From NCBI GenBank assembly GCA_964512715.1, contig CAZEJX010000001.1, positions 1-36,505 of the forward strand: 36,505 bases of DNA. Direction: 5' to 3'. This DNA is from an uncultured Candidatus Saccharibacteria bacterium (GTDB lineage: Bacteria; Patescibacteriota; Minisyncoccia; UBA6257; 2-01-FULL-56-20). How positions within the stretch are numbered: the first letter of the stretch is position 1; each line of letters starts with the position of its first letter. Shown here piece by piece: positions 19,910-34,794 of this stretch. The position numbers and the translations under genes were made by a program. The notes under the pieces were generated by a model. The model worked only from the letters and a program-made list of their open reading frames with translations. It searched no databases and had not been told where the DNA came from.

Positions 19910-20050
19910 AGTGCTTCTCCTCTATTCGCCCGAGACCATTCTCGCTGCGGCCCTTGATGTCAAAGAGCAAATTACTTATACGCTTGACATGAGCGCCTTG
20001 CAAGCGTGCCCCCTAGATTCTCAATTCTATATTCTATATTCTTATCTCAT

Positions 20051-21577
20051 ATGAAACGCACCGTAGCTTTGATTGTTTTAGACGGCTGGGGAATCGGCCG
20101 GGATGATGAGTCGAATCCTATTTATGTAGTGAAACCGCCGACGCTCGCGCGGCTTGCGGAAGAATATCCGCTGACTTCCCTTCAGGCTTCCGGCATCTCC
20201 GTCGGACTGCCGTGGGGTGAAACCGGTAATTCGGAAGTGGGCCACCTTACGCTCGGTGCCGGCAAAGTTATTTATCAGTACTATCCAAAAATTACGATTG
20301 CAATCCGCGATAAATCTTTTTTTGAGAACCCGGCGCTCAAAGCCGCATGCGCGCATGTAAAAGAAAACAATGCCACGCTACATTTTGCCGGTCTTCTTTC
20401 CAAAGGCAATGTGCATGCCTCGCTGGAGCACATCGAGGCTTTGCTTCAGATGGCAAAGCAGCAAGGTGTCGCGAACGTGAAACTGCATCTTTTCGGCGAT
20501 GGCAAAGACATGCCGAAGAAAACAATGGAAACGCTCCTTAAGGCTCTGCCGCCGGAAGCGTGCGCAACCATCATCGGCCGTTACTACGCCATGGATCGCG
20601 AGGGTAACTGGAACCTCACTGAAGAAGCTTATCGCCTTATGACTGAGGATGGACCGGCGGGAGATCTTCCCCAAACCATTGCCGCGACGTATGCGAAAGG
20701 TTTGAGCGAGGAATTTTTACCGGGCGTGCGCGTACAGGCTAACAGCGCCATTCATGATAACGACGCGCTGTTCTTCTTCAATTTCCGCGAGGATTCTATC
20801 CGTCAGCTCGCGGAATCGTTTATCACTAAAGATTTCAATCAATTCCAGCGCAAAGATCTCAAAAATATTTTTGTCGGGACGATGACTCGCTACAAAGATA
20901 GCTTCGATGCCCAGGTTGCGTTTGAAGCGGATGTGGTGAAGTCGCCCCTTGGTAAAGTAATCTCTGATCAAGGCCTGGTACAGCTGCGTCTCGCGGAAAC
21001 TTATAAGTACGCCCACGTCACGTATTTCTTTAATGGCTATGTGGAGGAGAATTTCCCCGGCGAAGAGCGTGTCTTGATTCCTTCCGAATCGATCCCCCAT
21101 CCTGATGAGCATCCGCAGATGATGGCTTCAGCGATAACCGATCGTATGGTTGGCGCGCTTGAGGAACGCGCATACGATTTTATTCTTGTAAATTACGCGA
21201 ATGGCGACACCATCGCACATAGTGGAAATTACAAAGCTTCGCTCGAAGCGGTGCGCACCGTAGACCGGGAATTGGAACGTGTTGTGAAAGCCGTCGAAGC
21301 GACGAATGCGATTCTTCTTATCACCTCCGATCACGGCAATGTTGAAGAGCTTTTCAACCCCACGACCGGCACGCCAGAAACCCAGCACGATCCGAGCCCG
21401 GTGCCGCTTCATCTCATAGCGCCTGAATTCAAAGATAAAAAGTTTGGCAATTGGCCGAATATCAAAAATGAAACTGCGGGCATCCTTTCTGACGTCGCAC
21501 CGACGATTTTGGAAATCATGGGCATACAGAAGCCAGATGACATGAGCGGCGAGAGCCTGCTGCGGCAACTGCGCTAA
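20051..21577 (+). CDS. gpmI: 2,3-bisphosphoglycerate-independent phosphoglycerate mutase
   Basis: It starts MKRTVALIVLDGWG and has GNSEVGHLTLGAG, YAHVTYFFNG, ANGDTIAHSG and ITSDHGN, all iPGM signatures. The start is set to ATG 20051. The track start is an upstream GTG. Confidence 0.95.
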   Translation: MKRTVALIVLDGWGIGRDDESNPIYVVKPPTLARLAEEYPLTSLQASGISVGLPWGETGNSEVGHLTLGAGKVIYQYYPKITIAIRDKSFFENPALKAACAHVKENNATLHFAGLLSKGNVHASLEHIEALLQMAKQQGVANVKLHLFGDGKDMPKKTMETLLKALPPEACATIIGRYYAMDREGNWNLTEEAYRLMTEDGPAGDLPQTIAATYAKGLSEEFLPGVRVQANSAIHDNDALFFFNFREDSIRQLAESFITKDFNQFQRKDLKNIFVGTMTRYKDSFDAQVAFEADVVKSPLGKVISDQGLVQLRLAETYKYAHVTYFFNGYVEENFPGEERVLIPSESIPHPDEHPQMMASAITDRMVGALEERAYDFILVNYANGDTIAHSGNYKASLEAVRTVDRELERVVKAVEATNAILLITSDHGNVEELFNPTTGTPETQHDPSPVPLHLIAPEFKDKKFGNWPNIKNETAGILSDVAPTILEIMGIQKPDDMSGESLLRQLR

Positions 21578-25211: not shown

Positions 25212-25295
25212 GGGCAAGTGGTGGAACTGGCAGACACGTAGCGTTCAGGGCGCTATGACCGCAAGGTCGTGAGGGTTCAAGTCCCTCCTTGCCCA
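25212..25295 (+). tRNA. tRNA-Leu (anticodon CAG), class II with long variable arm, no encoded CCA
   Basis: The acceptor stem gggcaag pairs with cttgccc, with discriminator A. The anticodon stem tagcg/cgcta carries loop ttCAGgg. The variable arm is tgaccgcaaggtcgt and the T arm is gaggg-ttcaagt-ccctc. Confidence 0.9.
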
Positions 25296-25361
25296 CAGCA
25301 GAACAATCAGAATTTAGTATCTAGAATTTAGGAAAAATAAATTAATAAGTTAGTCGAAAAT

Positions 25362-27402: not shown

Positions 27403-28101
27403 ATGAAAACAGTAGGGATGCTATGTATTGTGGGCATCTTAGTGATAGGCGGTTATTTTATTGTCAAAAATTATCATAATGTCTCTGAGCCCGTAGAGAA
27501 CAGCATCGTAGAGAAGAGCCAGTTCCCCTGCTCCGTACAAGATGGTTGGCAATGTTTCGGCGATATCGATAAAGTGGCTGTAGATTTTTCCGGAGATGGC
27601 AATACGTCTGAAGCCACTCTTTATTCAACGAGCACGAAAACTGAACGGGGCGTAGCATACTTCTTTAATATAGCGGGTGTCACATACGATGCCCCAGTTC
27701 CGATTGGCGCAAGTCGTTGTGAAGTTAAAGCAGTAGATCTGAATAAGGACGGTAAAGAAGAATTATTGATTAGCTGCGGCCAGGATGGAACTGGTGGATA
27801 TAGCACTTTTGGATTGCTTGCGAAGATCAACGGAAAAATACGTTACTTCTATAGCGAATTCTTATTGCCCAATGATGACACTTCTCTGGTTTGGATAAAT
27901 GATATAAGCCCTAAAGGAAGCTGGAGGGATGGAGAAATCCAACAGTACAAGAAATTCTATTACGAATTTAATGGAGCCCGGATAAGATATGCTAACAAAG
28001 AAGATATTTGTTCCTACGGCGGAAAAGAGAATCTCCGCGATACATGCTCGCCGGTCAATCCACCGGAAAAACCAGCTTATATTCCAGGCGAATTTAATTA
28101 A
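27403..28101 (+). CDS. Hypothetical membrane-anchored protein with FG-GAP/VCBS-like segment; visibly more AT-rich than neighbours
   Basis: It has an N-terminal TM (MLCIVGILVIGGYFIV) and a VDLNKDGKEELLISCGQDGTGG segment. There is no SD, and a -10-like CACAAT lies 6 nt before the ATG. Confidence 0.5.
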   Translation: MKTVGMLCIVGILVIGGYFIVKNYHNVSEPVENSIVEKSQFPCSVQDGWQCFGDIDKVAVDFSGDGNTSEATLYSTSTKTERGVAYFFNIAGVTYDAPVPIGASRCEVKAVDLNKDGKEELLISCGQDGTGGYSTFGLLAKINGKIRYFYSEFLLPNDDTSLVWINDISPKGSWRDGEIQQYKKFYYEFNGARIRYANKEDICSYGGKENLRDTCSPVNPPEKPAYIPGEFN

Positions 28102-28104
28102 TAC

Positions 28105-29094
28105 ATGTCTAAACCAACGCTGCTCTCAGGTGTTCAGCCCACCGGAAAACTCCATATCGGTAACTACCTCGGTGCTCTCAAGAATTTCGTAGACCTTCAG
28201 AATTCCGGAAAGTACAAATGCTTCTACGGTATCGTAGATCTGCATTCGCTGACGGAAGATTTTGTTCCCGCGCACAAATCGCAGCAGATATTCGATCTTG
28301 CCGCTGATTTCATTGCAGCTGGTCTTGATCCGGAGAAATCCATTATCTTCCAGCAATCTCAAATTCCCGCGCACACCGAGCTCGCCTGGATTTTTAACAC
28401 CATCACTCCTATGGGCGAGCTTGAGCGCATGACACAGTATAAAGACAAAGCTGCCCGTCAGGAGCAGAATATCAATGTGGGGCTTTTTGATTACCCCGTT
28501 CTTATGGCGGTGGACATCTTGATCTACAGCCCGGAAATCGTGCCGGTCGGAGACGATCAAGTGCAGCACATTGAACTTACCCGTACGATCGCCAGAAAAT
28601 TCAATAAGCGATTCGGGGAAACGTTTAAGGAACCGAAAGTGCTTCTTACGGAAACCTCGCGGGTAATGAACCTTAAAGACCCTACGAAGAAGATGTCCAA
28701 ATCCGATCCGGCAGGATGTCTTTTCTTGGATGATTCCCCGGAAGTCATTATGGATAAAGTGAAGCGCGCCGTGACAGACTCTGGCACGAAGATCTTCTAC
28801 GATCCGGAAAATAAGCCGGCGCTTTCCAATTTGCTCCGTATGTACTCTGCTCTTAGCGGCGAGACTCTGCAGAACACTGAAGAGCGCTTCGCAGGTAAGA
28901 GCTACGCGCAGTTTAAGCTCGAATTAGCGGAAACGATTGCAAATCACTTTGCGCCGTTTCGCGATAAGAAAGCGAAACTTCTCAAGAAGCCCGCTGTACT
29001 TAAGAAAATTCTCCGCGAAGGTTCTGAAGCTGCCGCTAAAGTTGCGAATAAGAAACTTGCCGAGGCGAAAAAGAAGATCGGAATCGTTTTATAG
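28105..29094 (+). CDS. trpS: Tryptophan--tRNA ligase
   Basis: It has SGVQPTGKLHIGNYLG (HIGH-type), GDDQVQHIELTR and KMSKS, and is 329 aa. Confidence 0.95.
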   Translation: MSKPTLLSGVQPTGKLHIGNYLGALKNFVDLQNSGKYKCFYGIVDLHSLTEDFVPAHKSQQIFDLAADFIAAGLDPEKSIIFQQSQIPAHTELAWIFNTITPMGELERMTQYKDKAARQEQNINVGLFDYPVLMAVDILIYSPEIVPVGDDQVQHIELTRTIARKFNKRFGETFKEPKVLLTETSRVMNLKDPTKKMSKSDPAGCLFLDDSPEVIMDKVKRAVTDSGTKIFYDPENKPALSNLLRMYSALSGETLQNTEERFAGKSYAQFKLELAETIANHFAPFRDKKAKLLKKPAVLKKILREGSEAAAKVANKKLAEAKKKIGIVL

Positions 29095-29095
29095 A

Positions 29096-29127
29096 GTCAT
29101 CCTGCGGCCTGCCTGCCGGTAGGCAGG
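29096..29127. repeat. GTCATYCC-family repeat with the same nested hairpin as 27333..27352
   Basis: The unit begins gtcatcctgcgg, then cctgcctgccggtaggcagg (29108..29127), which is the exact reverse complement of 27333..27352. It starts 2 nt after the trpS stop. Confidence 0.75.
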
Positions 29128-29134
29128 TACGCAC

Positions 29135-29158
29135 CGCGCGATCTCATGAGATCGCGCG
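29135..29158. terminator. Perfect 24-bp GC-clamped palindrome between convergent trpS and ileS (possible bidirectional terminator or structure)
   Basis: cgcgcgatctcatgagatcgcgcg is self-complementary. A third tcgcgcgat word follows at 29165..29173. There is no clear U-tract on either strand. Confidence 0.45.
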
Positions 29159-29177
29159 ATCAAGTCGCGCGATAACG

Positions 29178-32100
29178 TTATGTGCGTTCGATGGAAATCT
29201 TCGCTCTGCTTTCGAAATCCTCTGTACCACTTCCTTTCTCTATCTTTGAAATATAGGTTTTTTTCGTATCAAACTGCGCGAAGGCTTTCTCAATTTCTGC
29301 GTCGGAAGTTTCGTAATGTAAAACTGCTTCCTCCCCCACCTTAAAACCTTGAGTTTTGCGAAGTTCCTGTACGAAGCGTTCTAAGTTGCGAGTTAACCCT
29401 TCGAGTTTCAGTTCGGGCGTGAGTTCGGTATCTATGTACATATATGCCGCGCCACGAACATCGGGAAGCGGATATCTCTTAATGGTAGTGTTCGTTTCAT
29501 CCTTATCCAGAAGGTCACTCACCATAGCTTTGATATTTAGTTCAGAAAGAAGTATTTCTGCTAATTCTAGATTTGTAAGAATGAGTTCATCTTTTTCTTT
29601 ATTGACTTGTATGCGTGCCAGCGGCTGGCGTACTGGAATACTAAGCTCTTTTCGAGCGGACAGTCCTGCACTTGCCACACCGCGTACAAGCTCCATCTGC
29701 TTTATTAAGTCTTGTTCCTCGCCGGTGAGCGCTTCTTTTTCCGGCCAAGGCGTTACGTGCACCGAGCCGTGCATGGCCGGGTCTTCGCACATGGTATGCG
29801 TAAGATTCGAGTAGATCACCTCCGCGAGGTGCGGCATGAACGGCGCAATGACTTTCGAGAGCACGATAAGCGTTTCGTAGAAAGCCGGAAAGAACCCGCT
29901 ATCTTCGCGACCGCGAGAGCGGCGTAAATACCAGGTAGAGAAATCATCTACGAATTTTTCTATGGCGCGTGCGGCTTTCACCGTATCGTACGCATCCAAT
30001 TGATCGGTTGTTTCTATTACAAGTTCCTTAGTGCGAGCCCGGATCCAACGGTCGAGGACGTGTTGTTTGTCATCCTGAGGCTTCGCCGAAGGATCTCCTG
30101 CTCTTCCAGAAGGTTCTTCGCTGTCGCTCAGAATGACAGTGGGAGCGTACGTCATGAAGTACTGATATACGTTCCATATAATGAGCGTTACCTTGCGATG
30201 GACGTTACCCAAATCTTTCTCGCTGAAGTTCAGATTCTCGGCCTGCATAATAGTTGACCCCATGAGATAGAATCGCAACGTGTCTACGCCGAATTTATCA
30301 ATCACTAGCCAGGGGTCGGGGTAATTATTCTTAGATTTCGACATCTTGCTGCCGTCTTCGGCGAGGATTGTGCCAGTGGTTAGGAGGTTCTCGACGGGCG
30401 CCTTATTAAACAAGGCGAAATTCATGACGTGCATCAATTGGAACCACGCACGGGTCTGGGCAATGTATTCCGCCACGAACTGCGCCGGGTAGCGATGCTC
30501 AAATACTTCCCTGTTCTCAAAGGGGTAATGGTATTCCGCGAATGGCATGGAGCCGGCTTCGATCCAGGAATCGAAAATCTCCGGCACGCGCCGTGCATTG
30601 CCGCCGCATTTCTCACATTTGACCACTACATTGTCTATATACGGGCGGTGGAGATCAGTGAGCGTAGCCTCTATAGCGTAAGGAATAGCATACTGCGGGT
30701 AATCAACTTCAACGTTCAACTCTTCAAAAACAACCCAGAGCGGATCGCCATGGCTTACTATGAGCACACGCTTTCCCGGATGTTGTGCAGTGATCTCATG
30801 CACTACCTGCATCATGCGGTTTCGAGTTTCCGTCCAGGTTTCTCCGCCTTCCGGTGCGACTTTCCACCACCCTTCTGGAGGGCGGGCTTTGTCAAAATCG
30901 CTATTATGTTTACCATTCCATACGCCGGTATTAAATTCCCGCAATCGCGCATCAGTCACGACCGGCGCGCCGGTTGCCTTGCTCACAATCTCGGCAGTCT
31001 CCTTGGTACGGATAAAATCCGAGGTAATGATGAGATCCAAACCTTTTTCTTTAAGGAGTTCTGCCCCTTTCTTTGCGCTCTCCTTGCCTTTTTCGGTAAG
31101 GTGGAAGGTGTCTTCTTTAGGATCAGAGTTCACGATATCCATCACGTTTTGCTCTGCCTCGGCATGACGCATGAAATACAACGTTGTCGGTTCAAGTTTC
31201 AGATCTGAAACCGATCCCATCACGTGGTTTTCGCCGCAGGATTCACACTTCCATACCGGGATGGGATTACCCCAATAGCGGTTGCGGGAGATATTCCAGT
31301 CCGGCGCGGATTCGAGCGTCTTTTGATAGCGGCCATGTTTCAGGTGCGCCGGGTACCAATTCATTTCCTTATCGTTTGAAGCAAGAAGCCCGGGTTTTAA
31401 TTTCTGCACGTTTACAAACCACGCCGGGATGGCGTTATAGAAGAGCATCGTGCCGCAGCGCCAGCAGTGCGGATAGGAGTGCAGGTGGTTAGCACGAGCG
31501 AAGAGCAAACCGCGCTCCTCAAGATCTTTTTTAATGACACGCTCGGCGTCTTTAAAGTACTCGCCACGGATGAACTCCGGCGCATCTTTATTAAATTTCC
31601 CCTTCTCATCCAAGAGCGGCACCACGGGCAGCCCGACTTCCAGACCCAGCTTGTAGTCATCTTCGCCGTAGACCACTGCAGTGTGGACGATGCCGGTGCC
31701 GTCTTCCGTCGTAACAAAATCGGCTGGGTATACCTTAAAAGCCTTCTCGGATTGGACCGCTTGGATATTGAAAAGCGGCTCATAGGAGAGCCCCGTGAGA
31801 TCTCTGCCCTTCATCTCCGCAACTATCTCGCAATCAGTTTTGAGAGCGACGAGTCTGCTTTTGGCGAGGATAAGTTCTTCTCCCTGAACTTTCACACGCA
31901 CGTAATCAATATCTTTACCCACTGCGAGCGCGACGTTTCCCGGAAGAGTCCAAGGCGTTGTCGTCCAGGCGAGCAGGTAAGCAGGAGTGGCGAGTGGCGA
32001 GTGGCGAGCTTGTTCGCTGCTAATCTTAAACTTCACGTACACGGATTCTTCCTGCACGTCCTTGTAGCTCGAATCCATCGCCACTTCGAAATTCGAAAGC

Positions 32101-32669
32101 GGTGTTTCACAGCGCGGACAATACAAGAGTACCTTGCGTCCCTCGTACACCAAACCTTTGTCGTAGATGGTTTTGAATGCCCACCATACCGACTCCATGA
32201 ACGTGCGGTCCATGGTTTTGTAGGAGTTCTCGAATTCCACCCAGCGACCCAAGCGGCGGACCATCTTCCCCCATTCATCCGCGAATCGGAGCACGGTAGC
32301 GCGACAGGTTTCGTTAAATTTTTGGATGCCGACTTCTTCGATTTGCTTCTTGCCGGAAATGCCGAGCTGGCGTTCCACGATTTCCTCAACCGGCAGGCCG
32401 TGACAATCCCAACCCCAGCGTCGGCGCACAAAATGCCCGCTCATGGTTTGGTAGCGAGGGATAAGATCTTTTATCGTAGAGGCTAAAATATGCCCATAGT
32501 GCGGCAGACCGGTAGCAAACGGCGGGCCATCGTAGAAGGTATACGGAGCGCCGCTTTTGGTCTTTTCAAGCGATTTCTCGAAGGTCTTATCGTTCTCCCA
32601 AAAATCAGCTACTCGCTCTTCGAGCTCAGGAATAGAGAGAGCATCATCAAAAGGCTTTTTATCCTGCAT
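29178..32669 (-). CDS. ileS: Isoleucine--tRNA ligase (type 2-like) carrying a nested histidine-phosphatase domain and an in-frame repeat-element insertion
   Basis: It has PHYGH (HIGH), the WTTTPWTLP editing-domain motif, KMSKS, and the zinc knuckles CPRC, CWRC, CESCG and CEKCGG. The ORF is 1163 aa and uninterrupted. Confidence 0.95.
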   Translation of the reverse strand: MQDKKPFDDALSIPELEERVADFWENDKTFEKSLEKTKSGAPYTFYDGPPFATGLPHYGHILASTIKDLIPRYQTMSGHFVRRRWGWDCHGLPVEEIVERQLGISGKKQIEEVGIQKFNETCRATVLRFADEWGKMVRRLGRWVEFENSYKTMDRTFMESVWWAFKTIYDKGLVYEGRKVLLYCPRCETPLSNFEVAMDSSYKDVQEESVYVKFKISSEQARHSPLATPAYLLAWTTTPWTLPGNVALAVGKDIDYVRVKVQGEELILAKSRLVALKTDCEIVAEMKGRDLTGLSYEPLFNIQAVQSEKAFKVYPADFVTTEDGTGIVHTAVVYGEDDYKLGLEVGLPVVPLLDEKGKFNKDAPEFIRGEYFKDAERVIKKDLEERGLLFARANHLHSYPHCWRCGTMLFYNAIPAWFVNVQKLKPGLLASNDKEMNWYPAHLKHGRYQKTLESAPDWNISRNRYWGNPIPVWKCESCGENHVMGSVSDLKLEPTTLYFMRHAEAEQNVMDIVNSDPKEDTFHLTEKGKESAKKGAELLKEKGLDLIITSDFIRTKETAEIVSKATGAPVVTDARLREFNTGVWNGKHNSDFDKARPPEGWWKVAPEGGETWTETRNRMMQVVHEITAQHPGKRVLIVSHGDPLWVVFEELNVEVDYPQYAIPYAIEATLTDLHRPYIDNVVVKCEKCGGNARRVPEIFDSWIEAGSMPFAEYHYPFENREVFEHRYPAQFVAEYIAQTRAWFQLMHVMNFALFNKAPVENLLTTGTILAEDGSKMSKSKNNYPDPWLVIDKFGVDTLRFYLMGSTIMQAENLNFSEKDLGNVHRKVTLIIWNVYQYFMTYAPTVILSDSEEPSGRAGDPSAKPQDDKQHVLDRWIRARTKELVIETTDQLDAYDTVKAARAIEKFVDDFSTWYLRRSRGREDSGFFPAFYETLIVLSKVIAPFMPHLAEVIYSNLTHTMCEDPAMHGSVHVTPWPEKEALTGEEQDLIKQMELVRGVASAGLSARKELSIPVRQPLARIQVNKEKDELILTNLELAEILLSELNIKAMVSDLLDKDETNTTIKRYPLPDVRGAAYMYIDTELTPELKLEGLTRNLERFVQELRKTQGFKVGEEAVLHYETSDAEIEKAFAQFDTKKTYISKIEKGSGTEDFESRAKISIERT
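30068..30136. repeat. 69-nt GTCATYCTGAG inverted-repeat element inserted in frame inside ileS
   Basis: The sequence is gtcatcctgaggcttcgccgaaggatc...gaaggttcttcgctgtcgctcagaatgac. The termini gtcatcctgag and ctcagaatgac are inverted repeats. It translates as VILSDSEEPSGRAGDPSAKPQDD, between the NVYQYF and DRWI motifs. Confidence 0.8.
30654..31232 (-). other. Histidine phosphatase (phosphoglycerate-mutase-like, branch 1) domain nested in IleRS
   Basis: The insert is 193 aa, between CESCG and LHRPYID. It carries LYFMRHAEAEQN, LTEKGKESA, IITSDFIRTKETAEIV, RLREFNTGVWNG, GETWTE and LIVSHGDPL, which align with GpmB/CobC-type enzymes. Confidence 0.8.
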
Positions 32670-32780
32670 ATGTCCTATAAACTATCAGAAAATAGACGAA
32701 ATTCAAAGTTAATGAGAGCTTAACTTCTTGTGCTAAAATAGAGGCTGCACTTTGGTTCAGAAAAAAGATGGAGCTTGGGG

Positions 32781-33059
32781 ATGGAAGAAAAGCGCTCGGA
32801 GCCACTCGATAATCGCATGCGAGAGTATGCGAAAGACCTCATCCGCAGAATACGGGAGGGTAAATACGCAGGATTGAATTTTTCCCATTTGAGAAACGAT
32901 CCGCGCACGATTGTCGCAGACATCATCTGCCACCACCACTTTCACGATCTTATGAATCCTGAGGAGCTTAGAACATGGATACACGACGCAGAAAACGGTG
33001 AGCCCCTGCCGAGCTCAAAAAGGGACACTCCCATCACTCCAGTGAAGATCAATAATTAA
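32781..33059 (+). CDS. Hypothetical small protein (92 aa), His-rich patch CHHHFHD
   Basis: The ATG lies 7 nt after GGAG and a terminator hairpin follows immediately. I recognise no family. Confidence 0.45.
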   Translation: MEEKRSEPLDNRMREYAKDLIRRIREGKYAGLNFSHLRNDPRTIVADIICHHHFHDLMNPEELRTWIHDAENGEPLPSSKRDTPITPVKINN

Positions 33060-33064
33060 CCCCT

Positions 33065-33096
33065 GCCGCCCTCACTCTTCAAAGGGCGGCTTTTTA
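33065..33096 (+). terminator. Rho-independent terminator; its T-tract overlaps the argS stop codon on the opposite strand
   Basis: Stem gccgccct (33065..33072) pairs with agggcggc (33083..33090), followed by ttttt. Confidence 0.65.
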
Positions 33097-34794
33097 TATA
33101 GACTCCAATGCCTCAATGCCCAAGAGGGCGAGCCCGCGCGCGAGTACGCGCGCGGCAGTCGCGGCGAGGATAAGTCGCGCGCTGCGGCGCGCGGTGTTCT
33201 CGTCCGTCAGAATCTGCTGATCCTCATAAAAGCGGTTCGCGAGATTCGCGACCTCGTAGAGATACTTCGCGAGGTTATGGGTCATCGTTTCCGCTACGCT
33301 CTTTTTTATCTCATCAGAGAATTCAAAGAGTTTGCGCATGAGGCGCAGTTCGTGCTGAGTTGTGAGCAGTGAAGCGTGATTAGCGAGTAGATCAGATTGC
33401 TCTCCGCTCTTTACTATCATTCTTCGCAATCGCGCGTAGGTATACTGGAGATACGGACCGCTCTCACCCTGGAATGCGATTGATTTTTCAATATCGAAAA
33501 TGATGTCCTTGCCGATCCCTTGCCGCAAAATTGAGTAGCGGATGGCGGCGATCGCCACGCACTCTTTAATACGCTCTGATTCCTCCGCCGTGAACTCCCG
33601 TTCCTTTATCTTGTCACCCACGGCTTTTTTGATTTCATCAATCAGCCATTCCGCAGTAATCACGTCACCGGTGCGGGAGGACATCTTGCCGGTAGGCAGG
33701 CGGAGCATGCCGTGGCCAAGATGGGTCGTTTTCTTGGCAACTTCGGGGAGCACCAAGGACATGGCTTTCAAAAGTACCTTGAAGTATTCGTTGATTTCAT
33801 TGCCGGTAACGATAATAGACGTGTCCGGCGAATAGGTATCGAATTTAATCTTATTGAGACCCAATTCTTTTGCTTCATAGGTCGGGAGTCCCAGCGCGTT
33901 AATAAATACCCGGTTATGGAGATCATGCTCCTCGCCGCGGAAAATAATCGCGCCCTCGCTTTCTACGAATATATCCGGGTGCGCTTTCACGATGCGTGTT
34001 CCTTCCGGCGCGACTTCGCTCTCGAAGAAATAGTGGACGAACTTTGTTCCCAAGCGCACATAGAGCGTCTCGAAATATTCCAGGCTCCACCGTTTTCCTT
34101 TATCGTACATGGCGACAACATCTGCGTCGCTTTTCTCGTAAATCTTCTTATTGAGAGAATCTATGTCGGTTTTTGCGGAGACATCCTCGGTATACGCTTT
34201 CGAACCGAGCGCGTAGGCGCGCCCCAAGAACTTGCTCTTATCTGCCGGCGATGCATCTTCGGAGGGAATCTCGTTCTCGAGATGCGTCATCCCCCACACG
34301 CTCTTCGCCACATGGAGACCAACATCACCTTGGTAATTTACCCGGAGAACCTCTGCCCCCGCTGCTTCGTGGAGACGCGCAAGGGATTCGCCGATAGTAT
34401 TCGTCATCACGTGTCCGATATGGAATTCCTTGAACGGATTCGGATCGGTGTATTCGATCATGACTCGCTTGCCTTTTAGAGCATCCGCATTTCCGAAATC
34501 AGCGTCTTTTACAATCCTTGTAAACTCTTTTTGCAGTGCGGACACAGTGAGCCAGATATTTATGAACCCCGGCCCGGCTACCTCGATCTTCTCAATGAGT
34601 CCTGCGGGAGCAGCTTGCTTCATTTTTTCGGCAAGATTCTCTGCAACCGCGACAGGATTTTCCCCACGCTCTTTTCCGATTTGCATGGCCACTGCCGTCG
34701 TGTAATGACCAAAACCCTCCCGCTCTTCGGGAAGAATTTCGCCACGAGAATCGCCGAGTGCCGTATGAAGGAGATGTTCTACAACGTTTCGCAT
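33094..34794 (-). CDS. argS: Arginine--tRNA ligase
   Basis: It has the N-terminal add-1 domain (GPGFINIWL), HIGH-type PFKEFHIGH, LPTGKMSSRTG (MSTR-like), and a C-terminal DALR anticodon-binding pattern. Confidence 0.95.
   Translation of the reverse strand: MRNVVEHLLHTALGDSRGEILPEEREGFGHYTTAVAMQIGKERGENPVAVAENLAEKMKQAAPAGLIEKIEVAGPGFINIWLTVSALQKEFTRIVKDADFGNADALKGKRVMIEYTDPNPFKEFHIGHVMTNTIGESLARLHEAAGAEVLRVNYQGDVGLHVAKSVWGMTHLENEIPSEDASPADKSKFLGRAYALGSKAYTEDVSAKTDIDSLNKKIYEKSDADVVAMYDKGKRWSLEYFETLYVRLGTKFVHYFFESEVAPEGTRIVKAHPDIFVESEGAIIFRGEEHDLHNRVFINALGLPTYEAKELGLNKIKFDTYSPDTSIIVTGNEINEYFKVLLKAMSLVLPEVAKKTTHLGHGMLRLPTGKMSSRTGDVITAEWLIDEIKKAVGDKIKEREFTAEESERIKECVAIAAIRYSILRQGIGKDIIFDIEKSIAFQGESGPYLQYTYARLRRMIVKSGEQSDLLANHASLLTTQHELRLMRKLFEFSDEIKKSVAETMTHNLAKYLYEVANLANRFYEDQQILTDENTARRSARLILAATAARVLARGLALLGIEALESI

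What the first reader, a model, noticed from the sequence alone, without database searches (positions are those of the whole stretch)
30654..31232. Complete, apparently catalytically intact histidine-phosphatase domain nested inside the catalytic core of isoleucyl-tRNA synthetase
ileS (29178..32669) is one uninterrupted 1163-aa ORF with normal HIGH (PHYGH), editing (WTTTPWTLP) and KMSKS motifs. Between the zinc knuckle CESCG (31233..31247) and the conserved LHRPYID/CEKCGG (30600..30653) it carries 193 aa. From memory, canonical IleRS has only a short linker there.

The insert reads LYFMRHAEAEQN ... LTEKGKESAKKGAELLKEKGLDLIITSDFIRTKETAEIV ... ARLREFNTGVWNG ... GETWTETRNR ... RVLIVSHGDPL. This aligns motif for motif with cofactor-dependent PGAM, GpmB and CobC histidine phosphatases. 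The RH nucleophile, the second Arg, the Glu acid and the C-terminal SHG His are all retained.

It is not needed for glycolysis, because gpmI is present in the same window. I do not know of a described tRNA synthetase with an embedded, probably active phosphatase. It could act on a phosphorylated nucleotide, a tRNA 3'-end species or an inhibitor, or couple aminoacylation to a metabolic signal. All of those functions are speculative.
Basis: partly seen in the sequence, partly recalled or inferred. Interest (0 to 1): 0.85.

Follow-up and report, generated by a model that had tools for sequence, protein, structure and literature searches.

The report
Phosphatase domain nested inside isoleucyl-tRNA synthetase
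The enzyme that loads isoleucine onto tRNA carries a complete, apparently working phosphatase inserted in its middle; this is a conserved and apparently undescribed trait of the Patescibacteria (CPR) bacteria, and the phosphatase's target is unknown.

Summary
ileS (29178..32669, minus strand) is one uninterrupted 1163-aa type-2 IleRS. About 176 aa (residues 496-671) of histidine-phosphatase branch-1 domain (Pfam E 2e-35) replace a roughly 7-residue linker between the two zinc-knuckle halves of the CP3 subdomain.

It is not an artefact. 116 of the 120 closest protein clusters share the architecture, and so do 80 inspected species genomes spanning most Patescibacteria lineages. The catalytic Arg-His, Arg and His are invariant in 116/116 and 80/80 sequences. 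The acid Glu is E or D throughout. The rest of the insert averages only 43% identity.

The closest sequence and fold relative is PhoE, a broad-specificity phosphatase. It is not a phosphoglycerate mutase.

New findings:
- The insert was cleanly lost at least four times.
- Some IleRS carry two tandem copies, or a second copy at a different site.
- The same phosphatase clade also occurs as a separate gene packed between argS and an insertless ileS.
- It is also fused to ArgRS, ValRS (four tandem copies) and the t6A enzyme TsaC.

It therefore works as an autonomous module tied to tRNA-charging genes. The substrate is unknown. No description was found in the searchable literature.

The parts
29178..32669 (-). 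ileS, a 1163-aa type-2 isoleucyl-tRNA synthetase carrying the nested phosphatase
   Evidence: Single ORF. TIGR00392 scores 805 bits against a cut-off of 621. Best fold matches are P. megaterium IleRS2 8C8V and yeast IleRS 8WND.
32490..32501 (-). HIGH-type signature HYGH (aa 57-60)
   Evidence: P-H-Y-G are conserved in 115/116 family members.
31941..31967 (-). Editing-domain (CP1) motif WTTTPWTLP (aa 235-243)
   Evidence: Conserved in 116/116.
31236..31247 (-). First half of the CP3 zinc knuckle, CESC (aa 475-478)
   Evidence: C475 is 120/120; C478 is 98/120, the other 22 having a gap in that column. Aligns to the T. thermophilus IleRS 461-464 region.
30657..31184 (-). The insert proper (aa 496-671, 176 aa): a PhoE-like histidine-phosphatase module
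   Evidence: Boundaries set against 1ILE and insertless relatives. AF2 pLDDT is 86-97 over the insert. Insert model has pLDDT 90.6 and its best Foldseek hit is PhoE 1H2E, TM 0.75, rmsd 2.7 A.
30717..31181 (-). Pfam His_Phos_1 match (aa 497-651; profile positions 1-158 of 194)
   Evidence: E 2e-35. The C-terminal part of the profile is absent.
31164..31169 (-). R501-H502 of the RH(G/A) motif; H502 is the predicted phospho-accepting nucleophile
   Evidence: 116/116 and 80/80. Aligns with the RH of PhoE.
31008..31010 (-). R554, the second phosphate-pocket arginine
   Evidence: 116/116 and 80/80.
30936..30938 (-). E578, the predicted general acid/base
   Evidence: 111 E plus 5 D of 116; 77 E plus 3 D of 80.
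30750..30752 (-). H640 of the SHG motif, the second catalytic histidine
   Evidence: 116/116 and 80/80.
30606..30656 (-). Second half of CP3: DLHRPYID...CEKC (aa 672-688)
   Evidence: H674, R675, P676, C685 and C688 are invariant.
30333..30347 (-). KMSKS loop (aa 775-779)
   Evidence: K, S, K, S are 116/116.
30081..30143 (-). Loop aa 843-863. It is empty here, but in P0155, P0160 and P0202 it holds a second phosphatase copy (P0194 also has a copy after KMSKS).
   Evidence: Holds the model's only stretch with pLDDT below 50, aa 853-856. Collinear alignments break at query aa 842 to 864-869 around the extra copy.
33094..34794 (-). argS, directly upstream of ileS. In other lineages the same phosphatase clade is encoded just after argS or fused to its C-terminus.
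   Evidence: Pfam. Loci L086-L090, L095 and L096.
28105..29094 (+). trpS, convergent neighbour; part of the conserved SmpB-ArgRS-IleRS-TrpRS-RNase J synteny
20006..21577 (+). gpmI, cofactor-independent phosphoglycerate mutase. It covers the glycolytic step.
   Evidence: iPGM_N plus Metalloenzyme.

Best explanation
**Shown.** The window encodes a type-2 IleRS in which a minimal PhoE-type histidine phosphatase (aa 496-671) is nested in the CP3 connective-peptide subdomain. It sits between the two halves of the CP3 zinc knuckle. This is an old, largely vertically inherited trait of Patescibacteria (CPR).

**Inferred from conservation and from family chemistry (own knowledge).** The module is catalytically competent and hydrolyses a phosphomonoester by the standard two-step mechanism of the family. 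H502 attacks the phosphate held by R501, R554 and H640 and becomes phosphorylated. E578 protonates the leaving group and then activates water to release phosphate.

**Inferred from comparative anatomy.** The phosphatase is an autonomous module, not part of the aminoacylation or editing chemistry. The evidence is that:
- IleRS works without it, as shown by repeated clean losses.
- It tolerates one or two copies in IleRS (four in a ValRS) and two different insertion sites.
- In other lineages the same clade is a separate gene squeezed between argS and an insertless ileS.
- It is also fused to ArgRS, ValRS or TsaC.

The fusion most likely secures co-expression and co-localisation of the phosphatase with class I tRNA-charging enzymes.

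**Least certain.** My best guess for the substrate is a small phosphorylated metabolite or nucleotide-type ester rather than the tRNA body. A terminal phosphate on tRNA or a phospho-protein cannot be excluded.
For: **Domain identity**
- Pfam His_Phos_1, E 2e-35, nested in a split tRNA-synt_1. ileS equivalog above cut-off.
- Closest solved sequence is PhoE 1EBB/1H2E, E 4e-18. Closest fold is 1H2E, TM 0.75, rmsd 2.7 A, followed by other small-molecule phosphatases.

**Reality and breadth**
- 116 of the 120 best clusters carry PF00300, with names from Doudna-, Lipton-, Jorgensen-, Pace- and Saccharibacteria and Minisyncoccia.
- 384 GTDB species genomes matched. The 80 best loci carry the domain in one large ORF each.
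- About 93 of 148 50%-identity cluster representatives are IleRS fusions.

**Selection on catalysis**
- Mean pairwise identity is 43% in the insert and 66% in the host.
- R501, H502, R554 and H640 are nevertheless 116/116 and 80/80. E578 is E or D throughout.
- The chance that all 5 catalytic positions fall among the 13 most conserved of 176 columns is about 1e-6.

**Co-inheritance.** Host and insert identities correlate, r = 0.64.

**Autonomy**
- Four insertless proteins sit at four separate places in the host-only tree, in syntenic loci.
- Tandem and two-site variants exist.
- L095 reads ArgRS, free-standing His_Phos of 189 aa, insertless 931-aa IleRS, with 3-nt and 1-nt gaps.
- P0218 lies 1 nt after the argS 3' end.
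- ArgRS fusions occur in three clusters. A ValRS with four copies is on two independent contigs. A TsaC fusion exists.

**Not a mutase**
- pgm_1 scores 31.5 bits against a cut-off of 81.7. Only profile positions 1-158 of 194 are covered.
- gpmI is present.

**Against an RNA-body substrate.** The inserts are acidic: median pI 5.7, net charge -4, and -8 in this window.
Against: - No biochemical data exist. Invariant pocket residues could equally serve ligand sensing without turnover.
- All fusion partners found are tRNA-pathway enzymes, and the three synthetases are all class I. This hints at a more specific link to tRNA or adenylate chemistry than simple co-expression.
- The domain is minimal. 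The cap from E578 to E610 is only 32 residues, and the C-terminal part of the profile is missing. From my own knowledge of the family, this correlates with macromolecular substrates such as those of SixA and Sts-1.
- The N-side junction is short and has discrete lengths (15 or 19 residues from S486 to R501). Model confidence is high across the junctions. Both would fit a fixed, functional orientation.
- The 116/120 figure is biased, because the query itself contained the insert.
- The cultured Saccharibacterium S. epibionticum has an insertless IleRS, so the module is not universally required.
Confidence: 0.62

Rival explanations
1. The phosphatase repairs tRNA ends. It removes a 2'/3'-phosphate, or the terminal phosphate of a 3'-pyrophosphate, from A76 of tRNA as the CCA end visits the enzyme. 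This would restore chargeability after damage by tRNA-targeting toxins or nucleases.
For: - Every fusion partner is a tRNA-pathway enzyme. The three synthetases (IleRS, ValRS, ArgRS) are all class I and act on the A76 2'-OH.
- The operon linkage to argS and ileS is tight.
- The minimal cap suggests an open active site.
- One insertless locus has an Exo_endo_phos gene overlapping the ileS stop codon.
- Own knowledge: toxic RelA-SpoT homologues pyrophosphorylate the tRNA 3' end.
Against: - The inserts are acidic.
- The nearest relatives all act on small molecules.
- Variable copy number, two insertion sites and a free-standing form argue against a required geometry.
- TsaC does not handle the CCA end.
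- The Exo_endo_phos neighbour is seen at only 1 of 4 insertless loci.
- There is no PADLOC hit.
- CP3 is mentioned only once, in the list of domains, in the yeast IleRS-tRNA paper.
- Own knowledge: branch-1 histidine phosphatases are not known to act on RNA ends.
Confidence: 0.13
2. The module is a phospho-protein phosphatase of SixA, Sts-1 or PGAM5 type. It reverses inhibitory phosphorylation of aminoacyl-tRNA synthetases or other translation factors.
For: - The domain is minimal with a short cap.
- It is tethered to or co-transcribed with synthetases.
- Own knowledge: HipA and HipT kinases inactivate GltX and TrpS by phosphorylating the active site.
Against: - The SixA model scores 34-39 bits against a cut-off of 74.5.
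- The best structural neighbours are metabolite phosphatases.
- No kinase was seen in the conserved neighbourhood.
Confidence: 0.08
3. The domain is a non-catalytic ligand sensor or a purely structural appendage. The conserved pocket binds a phosphorylated metabolite and tunes IleRS activity allosterically, or simply stabilises CP3.
For: - The junctions are short and have discrete lengths, and the model is confident across them.
- Pocket residues are also what ligand binding would conserve.
Against: - The full catalytic set, including the acid/base Glu, is retained in about 200 divergent sequences.
- Free-standing 189-191-aa versions of the same clade exist and cannot be allosteric appendages.
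- Insertless IleRS are common.
- The domain occurs in multiple copies.
Confidence: 0.07
4. The insert is an artefact: a chimeric assembly, a frameshifted gene call, or a recent selfish insertion such as an intein or mobile element, with no host function.
For: - The data are metagenomic.
- One relative (P0283) carries a transposase-like segment in frame.
Against: - The same architecture occurs in more than 100 protein clusters and 80 species genomes from independent projects.
- The identical protein is found on a second, independently assembled contig.
- The reading frame is uninterrupted and GC is flat.
- Pfam finds no intein or Hint domain.
- The junction residues are T496 and D672, not those an intein needs.
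- Host and insert divergence are correlated.
Confidence: 0.01
5. The domain is a cofactor-dependent phosphoglycerate mutase supplying a glycolytic step.
For: It belongs to the same superfamily, and the best NCBIfam subfamily hit is named dPGM_arch.
Against: - dPGM_arch scores 86-90 bits against a cut-off of 225. pgm_1 scores 31.5 against 81.7.
- The C-terminal tail needed for mutase activity (own knowledge) is absent, since only profile positions 1-158 of 194 are covered.
- gpmI is present in the window.
Confidence: 0.02

Closest known systems
PhoE (YhfR) of Geobacillus stearothermophilus, a broad-specificity histidine phosphatase (PDB 1EBB, 1H2E)
   Same: It is the closest solved sequence (E 4e-18) and the closest fold (TM 0.75, rmsd 2.7 A, 32% identity). 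The RH, R, E and H catalytic residues align. Like the insert, it is a phosphatase rather than a mutase.
   Different: PhoE is a free-standing protein of about 205 aa with a longer cap and a C-terminal extension. The insert has 176 aa, lacks the last ~35 profile positions, and is nested in another enzyme. Its substrates are untested.
Free-standing His_Phos genes of about 190 aa in Patescibacteria, located between argS and ileS (P0286 in L095; P0218 in L089)
   Same: They belong to the same clade. P0286 scores 191 bits against an HMM built only from IleRS inserts. They have the same short form and the same genomic slot.
   Different: They are separate polypeptides. The adjacent IleRS in L095 has 931 aa and no insert.
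IleRS with a nested N-acetyltransferase domain (NCBIfam exception model NF040702, ileS_w_GNAT)
   Same: It is a precedent for a foreign catalytic domain carried inside an IleRS. One relative (P0283) has both a His_Phos and a GNAT domain.
   Different: The domain and its chemistry are different. The window protein scores 294 bits against a cut-off of 1999, so it is not a member.
Bifunctional RNase H / acid phosphatase (NCBIfam NF005567; Rv2228c type)
   Same: A branch-1 histidine phosphatase is fused to an enzyme of nucleic-acid metabolism. It is the second-best NCBIfam phosphatase hit (80-84 bits).
   Different: That fusion is end to end, not nested, and has a different partner. The score is far below the cut-off of 326.
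Canonical type-2 IleRS (T. thermophilus 1ILE; P. megaterium IleRS2 8C8U/8C8V)
   Same: It has the same host fold, motifs, CP3 zinc knuckle and type-2 C-terminal domains.
   Different: Canonical enzymes have about 7 residues where this protein has a 176-aa phosphatase.

Membership tests
Histidine phosphatase superfamily, branch 1 (Pfam PF00300) | Significant match to the family profile, above the curated threshold | tested here: met
   122.6 bits in the whole protein and 127.3 bits for the insert alone, against a cut-off of 21.7.
Histidine phosphatase superfamily, branch 1 (Pfam PF00300) | RHG-type motif with the nucleophilic His, a second Arg, a second His and an acidic proton donor | tested here: met
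   R501-H502-A503 in the window; G at position 503 in 106 of 116. R554, H640 and E578 align with PhoE and are conserved.
Histidine phosphatase superfamily, branch 1 (Pfam PF00300) | Alpha/beta fold of the family | tested here: met
   AF2 model has pLDDT 90.6. Foldseek best hit is 1H2E, TM 0.75, and the listed top 50 hits all belong to the superfamily.
Histidine phosphatase superfamily, branch 1 (Pfam PF00300) | Phosphomonoesterase activity through a phospho-histidine intermediate | not testable with these tools
   Needs an enzyme assay and an H502A control.
Cofactor-dependent phosphoglycerate mutase (dPGM) | Score above the curated cut-off of the dPGM models | tested here: not met
   pgm_1 31.5 against 81.7; dPGM_arch 86-90 against 225; GpmB 67-73 against 261.
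Cofactor-dependent phosphoglycerate mutase (dPGM) | C-terminal tail that closes the active site | tested here: not met
   The Pfam match ends at profile position 158 of 194. Host sequence resumes 31 residues after H640.
Isoleucyl-tRNA synthetase (TIGR00392 equivalog), type 2 | Score above the equivalog cut-off; HIGH and KMSKS motifs; CP1 editing motif; type-2 C-terminal domain | tested here: met
   805 bits against 621. HYGH, KMSKS and WTTTPWTLP are present. DUF5915 is present. Best folds are IleRS2 and yeast IleRS.
Isoleucyl-tRNA synthetase (TIGR00392 equivalog), type 2 | Isoleucine-specific aminoacylation activity | not testable with these tools
   Needs a biochemical assay. Whether this is the only ileS in the genome could not be checked from a 36.5-kb window.
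SixA phosphohistidine phosphatase | Score above the TIGR00249 cut-off | tested here: not met
   34-38.6 bits against 74.5, and only the first ~70 residues match.
CobC alpha-ribazole phosphatase | Score above the TIGR03162 cut-off | tested here: not met
   71.5-76 bits against 162.9.
ileS_w_GNAT (NF040702) | Score above cut-off and presence of a GNAT domain | tested here: not met
   294 bits against 1999, and no acetyltransferase domain in the window protein.
Intein or other self-excising insertion | Hint/intein domain, and nucleophilic Cys, Ser or Thr at the residue after the insert | tested here: not met
   No intein family was found by Pfam. The insert folds as His_Phos. The residue after the insert is D672.
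Known anti-phage defence components (PADLOC) | Match to any PADLOC model | tested here: not met
   No hits for the insert or the whole protein.

The most novel reading that the evidence does not exclude
The phosphatase clade is a dedicated, previously unrecognised accessory of class I aminoacylation in Patescibacteria. It would act on a phosphorylated form of the tRNA 3' end, or of an adenylate-type ligand, as a built-in repair or antidote activity. Evolution would have delivered it repeatedly to tRNA-charging enzymes: nested in IleRS at two sites, fused to ArgRS and ValRS, fused to TsaC, or encoded between argS and ileS. This would be a new quality-control or damage-reversal step in translation.
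Probability: 0.15. Interest if true: 0.9.

Novelty: new variant of a known kind. Interest (0 to 1): 0.68.

Why it matters
Aminoacyl-tRNA synthetases are among the best-studied enzymes. Their accreted domains (editing domains, tRNA-binding appendages, eukaryotic signalling domains) have repeatedly revealed new biology.

Here a whole bacterial superphylum carries a second, apparently active catalytic centre inside an essential synthetase. That superphylum is a large share of bacterial diversity and is known for minimal genomes.

Gene fusion, gene order and repeated independent insertion all tie the same phosphatase to tRNA-charging enzymes. In genomes under strong reduction, keeping 176 extra residues with invariant catalytic residues implies a real function.

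- If the function is generic, this is a clear case of gene fusion serving genome streamlining.
- If it is tRNA- or adenylate-linked, it would be a new step in translation quality control or in defence against toxins.

It also matters in practice. NCBI names many of these proteins only 'class I tRNA ligase family protein'. A large recent IleRS survey preprint does not mention the insert.

Tried and rejected
1. **Geometry of the two active sites.** The full-length AF2 model is good (pLDDT 87.4), but its coordinates are not exposed. No distances or orientations could be measured.
2. **Exo_endo_phos gene as a functional replacement.** It overlaps the ileS stop codon in the closest insertless relative (L081). 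It is absent from the three other insertless loci, so I treat it as an anecdote.
3. **ArgRS fusion as a remnant of a decayed ileS.** The gene orders ArgRS-IleRS-RecO and ArgRS::HisPhos-RecO suggested this. I rejected it because there are no IleRS flank motifs and the fused domain is closest to free-standing genes.
4. **Free-standing copies near the four close insertless relatives.** None was detected within 5-8 kb, even with sensitive HMM searches.
5. **Defence-system link.** There are no PADLOC hits.
6. **RNA leader or T-box near ileS.** There are no Rfam hits in the window.
7. **Occurrence outside Patescibacteria.** Two loci are labelled Acidobacteriaceae and Spirochaetia. By synteny, GC content and best hits they look mis-binned.
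8. **Domain tree.** I tried to polarise the nested and free-standing forms. The branches are too deep, with distances of 0.5-0.7, to decide which came first.
9. **Tn-seq data from a cultured Saccharibacterium.** Its IleRS is insertless, so the data say nothing about the insert.
10. **Insert-only word-indexed protein search.** It returned only 24 free-standing proteins and missed the fusions. The exhaustive search was needed.
11. **Prevalence.** This could not be estimated without bias, because the queries contained the insert.
Full report
**Observation.** Window 29178..32669 (minus strand) is one uninterrupted 1163-aa ORF. The quoted landmarks translate as stated: CESCG at 31233..31247, LHRPYIDNVVVKCEKCGG at 30600..30653, and the 193-aa segment between them. 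Pfam finds tRNA-synt_1 split into two stretches (E 7e-129), with His_Phos_1 nested at aa 497-651 (E 2e-35). It also finds Anticodon_1 and DUF5915, the C-terminal domain of type-2 IleRS. The NCBIfam ileS equivalog scores 805 bits against a cut-off of 621. GC content is flat across the junctions.

**Boundaries and position in the host.**
- Against T. thermophilus IleRS (1ILE), host residues 440-495 align to 426-481 and host 672-786 to 489-602. About 176 residues (496-671; window 30657..31184) therefore replace about 7.
- Close relatives without the insert join ...GS.AELG.. directly to DLHRPYID.
- The site lies between the two Cys pairs of a zinc knuckle. Published structures assign this region to the CP3 subdomain. 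CP3 is a peripheral connective peptide whose topology differs among IleRS, and it carries a zinc motif in the Thermus enzyme (PMC7191050).
- 'Inside the catalytic core' is therefore loosely right, because the Rossmann-fold domain is split. The site itself is a variable surface element.

**It is real and widespread.**
- 116 of the 120 best-scoring 90%-identity clusters have the same architecture. Source names come from many Patescibacteria lineages. This fraction is biased, because the query contained the insert.
Each of the 80 best loci has the domain inside one large ORF. They include Saccharibacteria, Gracilibacteria, Paceibacteria/Parcubacteria groups, Doudnabacteria and Minisyncoccia.
- Two loci labelled Acidobacteriaceae and Spirochaetia look mis-binned.
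- In an exhaustive search of 1.84 billion cluster representatives, about 93 of the 148 representatives classified are IleRS fusions.
- The identical protein is also on a contig assembled independently from run SRR12313481.

**It looks catalytically competent.**
- Mean pairwise identity is 43% in the insert and 66% in the host, rising to 78% in the Rossmann parts.
- R501, H502, R554 and H640 are nevertheless invariant in 116/116. E578 is 111 E plus 5 D.
- An independent, more divergent set of 80 GTDB genomes gives 80/80 for the four residues and 77 E plus 3 D for E578.
- Only 7 of the 176 insert columns are invariant, and 4 of them are catalytic. The chance that all five catalytic positions fall among the 13 most conserved columns is about 1e-6.
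- The window has RHA rather than RHG, as do 10 of the 116.
- The closest solved sequence is PhoE, the broad-specificity phosphatase of G. stearothermophilus (E 4e-18). A focused AF2 model (pLDDT 90.6) matches 1H2E best (TM 0.75, rmsd 2.7 A). The next hits are phosphoserine phosphatase PspA and glucosyl-3-phosphoglycerate phosphatase.
- No curated subfamily model reaches its cut-off. The dPGM models score far below theirs, and the last ~35 profile positions, which include the mutase tail, are missing. With gpmI at 20006..21577, a glycolytic role is not supported.

**Evolution.**
- Host and insert divergences are correlated (r = 0.64), as expected for co-inheritance.
- In a host-only tree the four insertless proteins sit at four separate positions. 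Each is sister to insert-bearing sequences, and one (P0014) is the closest relative of the window protein.
- Their loci share the window's synteny: SmpB-ArgRS-IleRS-TrpRS-RNase J. The simplest reading is at least four independent, precise losses.
- The cultured Saccharibacterium Southlakia epibionticum also has an insertless, essential IleRS of 978 aa (PMC10633639 supplements).

**Variants.**
- Ten of the IleRS-linked representatives carry two copies, of two kinds. Some have tandem copies in CP3 (P0146, P0223, P0158).
- Others have one copy in CP3 and another about 75 residues after KMSKS (P0155, P0160, P0202, P0194). Collinear alignments place that second site in the window protein's loop 843-863, which includes the model's only stretch with pLDDT below 50.
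- The P0155 form occurs in six assemblies, one of them a 1.06-Mb contig.
- One relative, P0283, combines a REP-associated tyrosine-transposase-like segment inside the editing domain, a His_Phos in CP3 and a GNAT domain downstream. NCBIfam has a separate model for IleRS with a GNAT domain. Patescibacterial IleRS is evidently a hot spot for domain accretion.

**The module is linked to tRNA-charging genes beyond IleRS.** Apart from a low-complexity false match (P0241) and six two-domain proteins with no other partner, the non-IleRS proteins longer than 300 aa among the insert's closest relatives are:
- an ArgRS with a C-terminal His_Phos (P0222; argS equivalog 405 bits against 262);
- a ValRS N-terminal part followed by four tandem copies (P0151);
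- a TsaC/Sua5 threonylcarbamoyl-AMP synthase with a C-terminal copy (P0281).

The ArgRS fusion recurs in three clusters, one only 49% identical to P0222, and in independent assemblies. The ValRS form is on two independent contigs. The ArgRS-fused domain is closest to free-standing proteins of about 190 aa and carries no IleRS flank remnants.

Those free-standing genes are informative. P0218 starts 1 nt after the 3' end of argS. In L095/L096 the order is SmpB, IF3, L35 (called in L096 only), L20, ArgRS, His_Phos (189 aa) and IleRS (931 aa, no insert), with gaps of 3 and 1 nt. That free-standing protein scores 191 bits against an HMM built only from IleRS inserts.

The same phosphatase clade thus appears in three states: nested in IleRS, as a separate gene between argS and ileS, or fused to ArgRS. 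This is the classic combination of fusion and gene-order evidence for a functional or regulatory link.

**Mechanism.**
- Shown: the anatomy, the conservation, the autonomy and the linkage.
- Inferred from family chemistry (own knowledge): H502 is phosphorylated by a phosphomonoester held by R501, R554 and H640, and E578 acts as acid/base.
- Inferred from comparative anatomy: variable copy number, two insertion sites, a free-standing form and clean losses mean the phosphatase does not need a fixed geometry relative to the synthetic or editing site. It is not part of the aminoacylation chemistry. The fusion more likely secures co-expression and co-localisation.

**The substrate is unknown, and the clues conflict.**
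- The nearest relatives act on small molecules, and the inserts are acidic (median pI 5.7). Both point away from the tRNA body.
- The domain is minimal and probably open, and every fusion partner is a tRNA-pathway, adenylate-forming enzyme. Both keep a tRNA-end, nucleotide or phospho-protein substrate alive.
- I put about 0.6 on an autonomous, active phosphomonoesterase with a small-molecule or nucleotide-type substrate, about 0.13 on tRNA-end repair, and less on the other options.

**Novelty.** Full-text searches found no description. They combined IleRS or aminoacyl-tRNA synthetase with histidine phosphatase, phosphoglycerate mutase, His_Phos_1, CPR or Patescibacteria. A 2026 preprint surveying 96,219 IleRS sequences mentions neither phosphatase nor Patescibacteria in its main text. 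Subscription-only literature was not searchable. Domain accretion in synthetases and fusions of histidine phosphatases are both known kinds of event, so I rate this a new variant of a known kind. It is well supported and phylogenetically broad.

**Limits.** There is no biochemistry, no access to model coordinates, no read mapping and no unbiased prevalence estimate. Whether genomes with the free-standing or ArgRS-fused form always lack the nested form rests on one fully informative gene arrangement (L095, with L096 cut inside ileS).

Noticed in passing
P0283 (JGI contig, 1066 aa, cut at the contig end); corresponds to about window aa 300 of ileS: An IleRS relative carries an in-frame IS200/REP-associated tyrosine-transposase-like segment (aa 326-472) inside the editing domain. 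It also has the CP3 phosphatase and a GNAT acetyltransferase domain further downstream. Patescibacterial IleRS seems unusually tolerant of in-frame domain insertions.
   Followed up: partly
L081 10931-11704 (locus of the insertless relative P0014, syntenic with window 28105..34794): An Exo_endo_phos family gene overlaps the ileS stop codon by 4 nt, at a position where the window has only a short spacer before trpS. It is not seen in three other insertless loci. It could be coincidence or a non-homologous substitute.
   Followed up: partly
window 30081..30143 (ileS aa 843-863): This low-confidence acidic, proline-rich loop is the exact position where some divergent Patescibacterial IleRS carry a second histidine-phosphatase copy. 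It is a second permissive site in the same enzyme.
   Followed up: yes
L014 2-464 and 410-2308: In a Taylorbacteria genome a divergent histidine-phosphatase ORF, cut by the locus start, overlaps the start of argS. It lies directly upstream of an ileS that also carries the nested copy, so two family members flank argS.
   Followed up: partly
Names: NCBI annotates many of these proteins as 'class I tRNA ligase family protein' or 'hypothetical protein' rather than isoleucine--tRNA ligase, whereas an insertless relative (P0108) is named isoleucine--tRNA ligase. The window protein nevertheless passes the ileS equivalog cut-off here.
   Followed up: no
L003 and L016 (GTDB records labelled Acidobacteriaceae and Spirochaetia): Both contigs carry a Patescibacteria-type IleRS with the insert. 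L003 also has ArgRS-IleRS synteny and 49% GC. L016 has 37% GC. They are probably mis-binned contigs in those MAGs.
   Followed up: partly
Southlakia epibionticum ML1 genes SEML1_0180, SEML1_0642 and SEML1_0709 (PMC10633639 supplements): The cultured Saccharibacterium has an insertless, essential IleRS and a non-essential dPGM. It also has a 79-aa ORF with weak structural similarity to phosphoglycerate-mutase-family proteins, possibly a decayed remnant of the module.
   Followed up: partly
window 32775..33059 (+) and 27403..28101 (+): A 94-aa ORF lies between ileS and argS, and a 232-aa ORF lies upstream of trpS. Neither has a Pfam hit. A small ORF also occupies the ileS-argS spacer on the second contig that carries this gene.
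   Followed up: no
window 25212..25296 (+): This is the only RNA gene found in the window, tRNA-Leu(CAG). No Rfam family reaches its gathering score anywhere in the 36.5 kb, so there is no recognisable leader or T-box for the three synthetase genes.
   Followed up: yes
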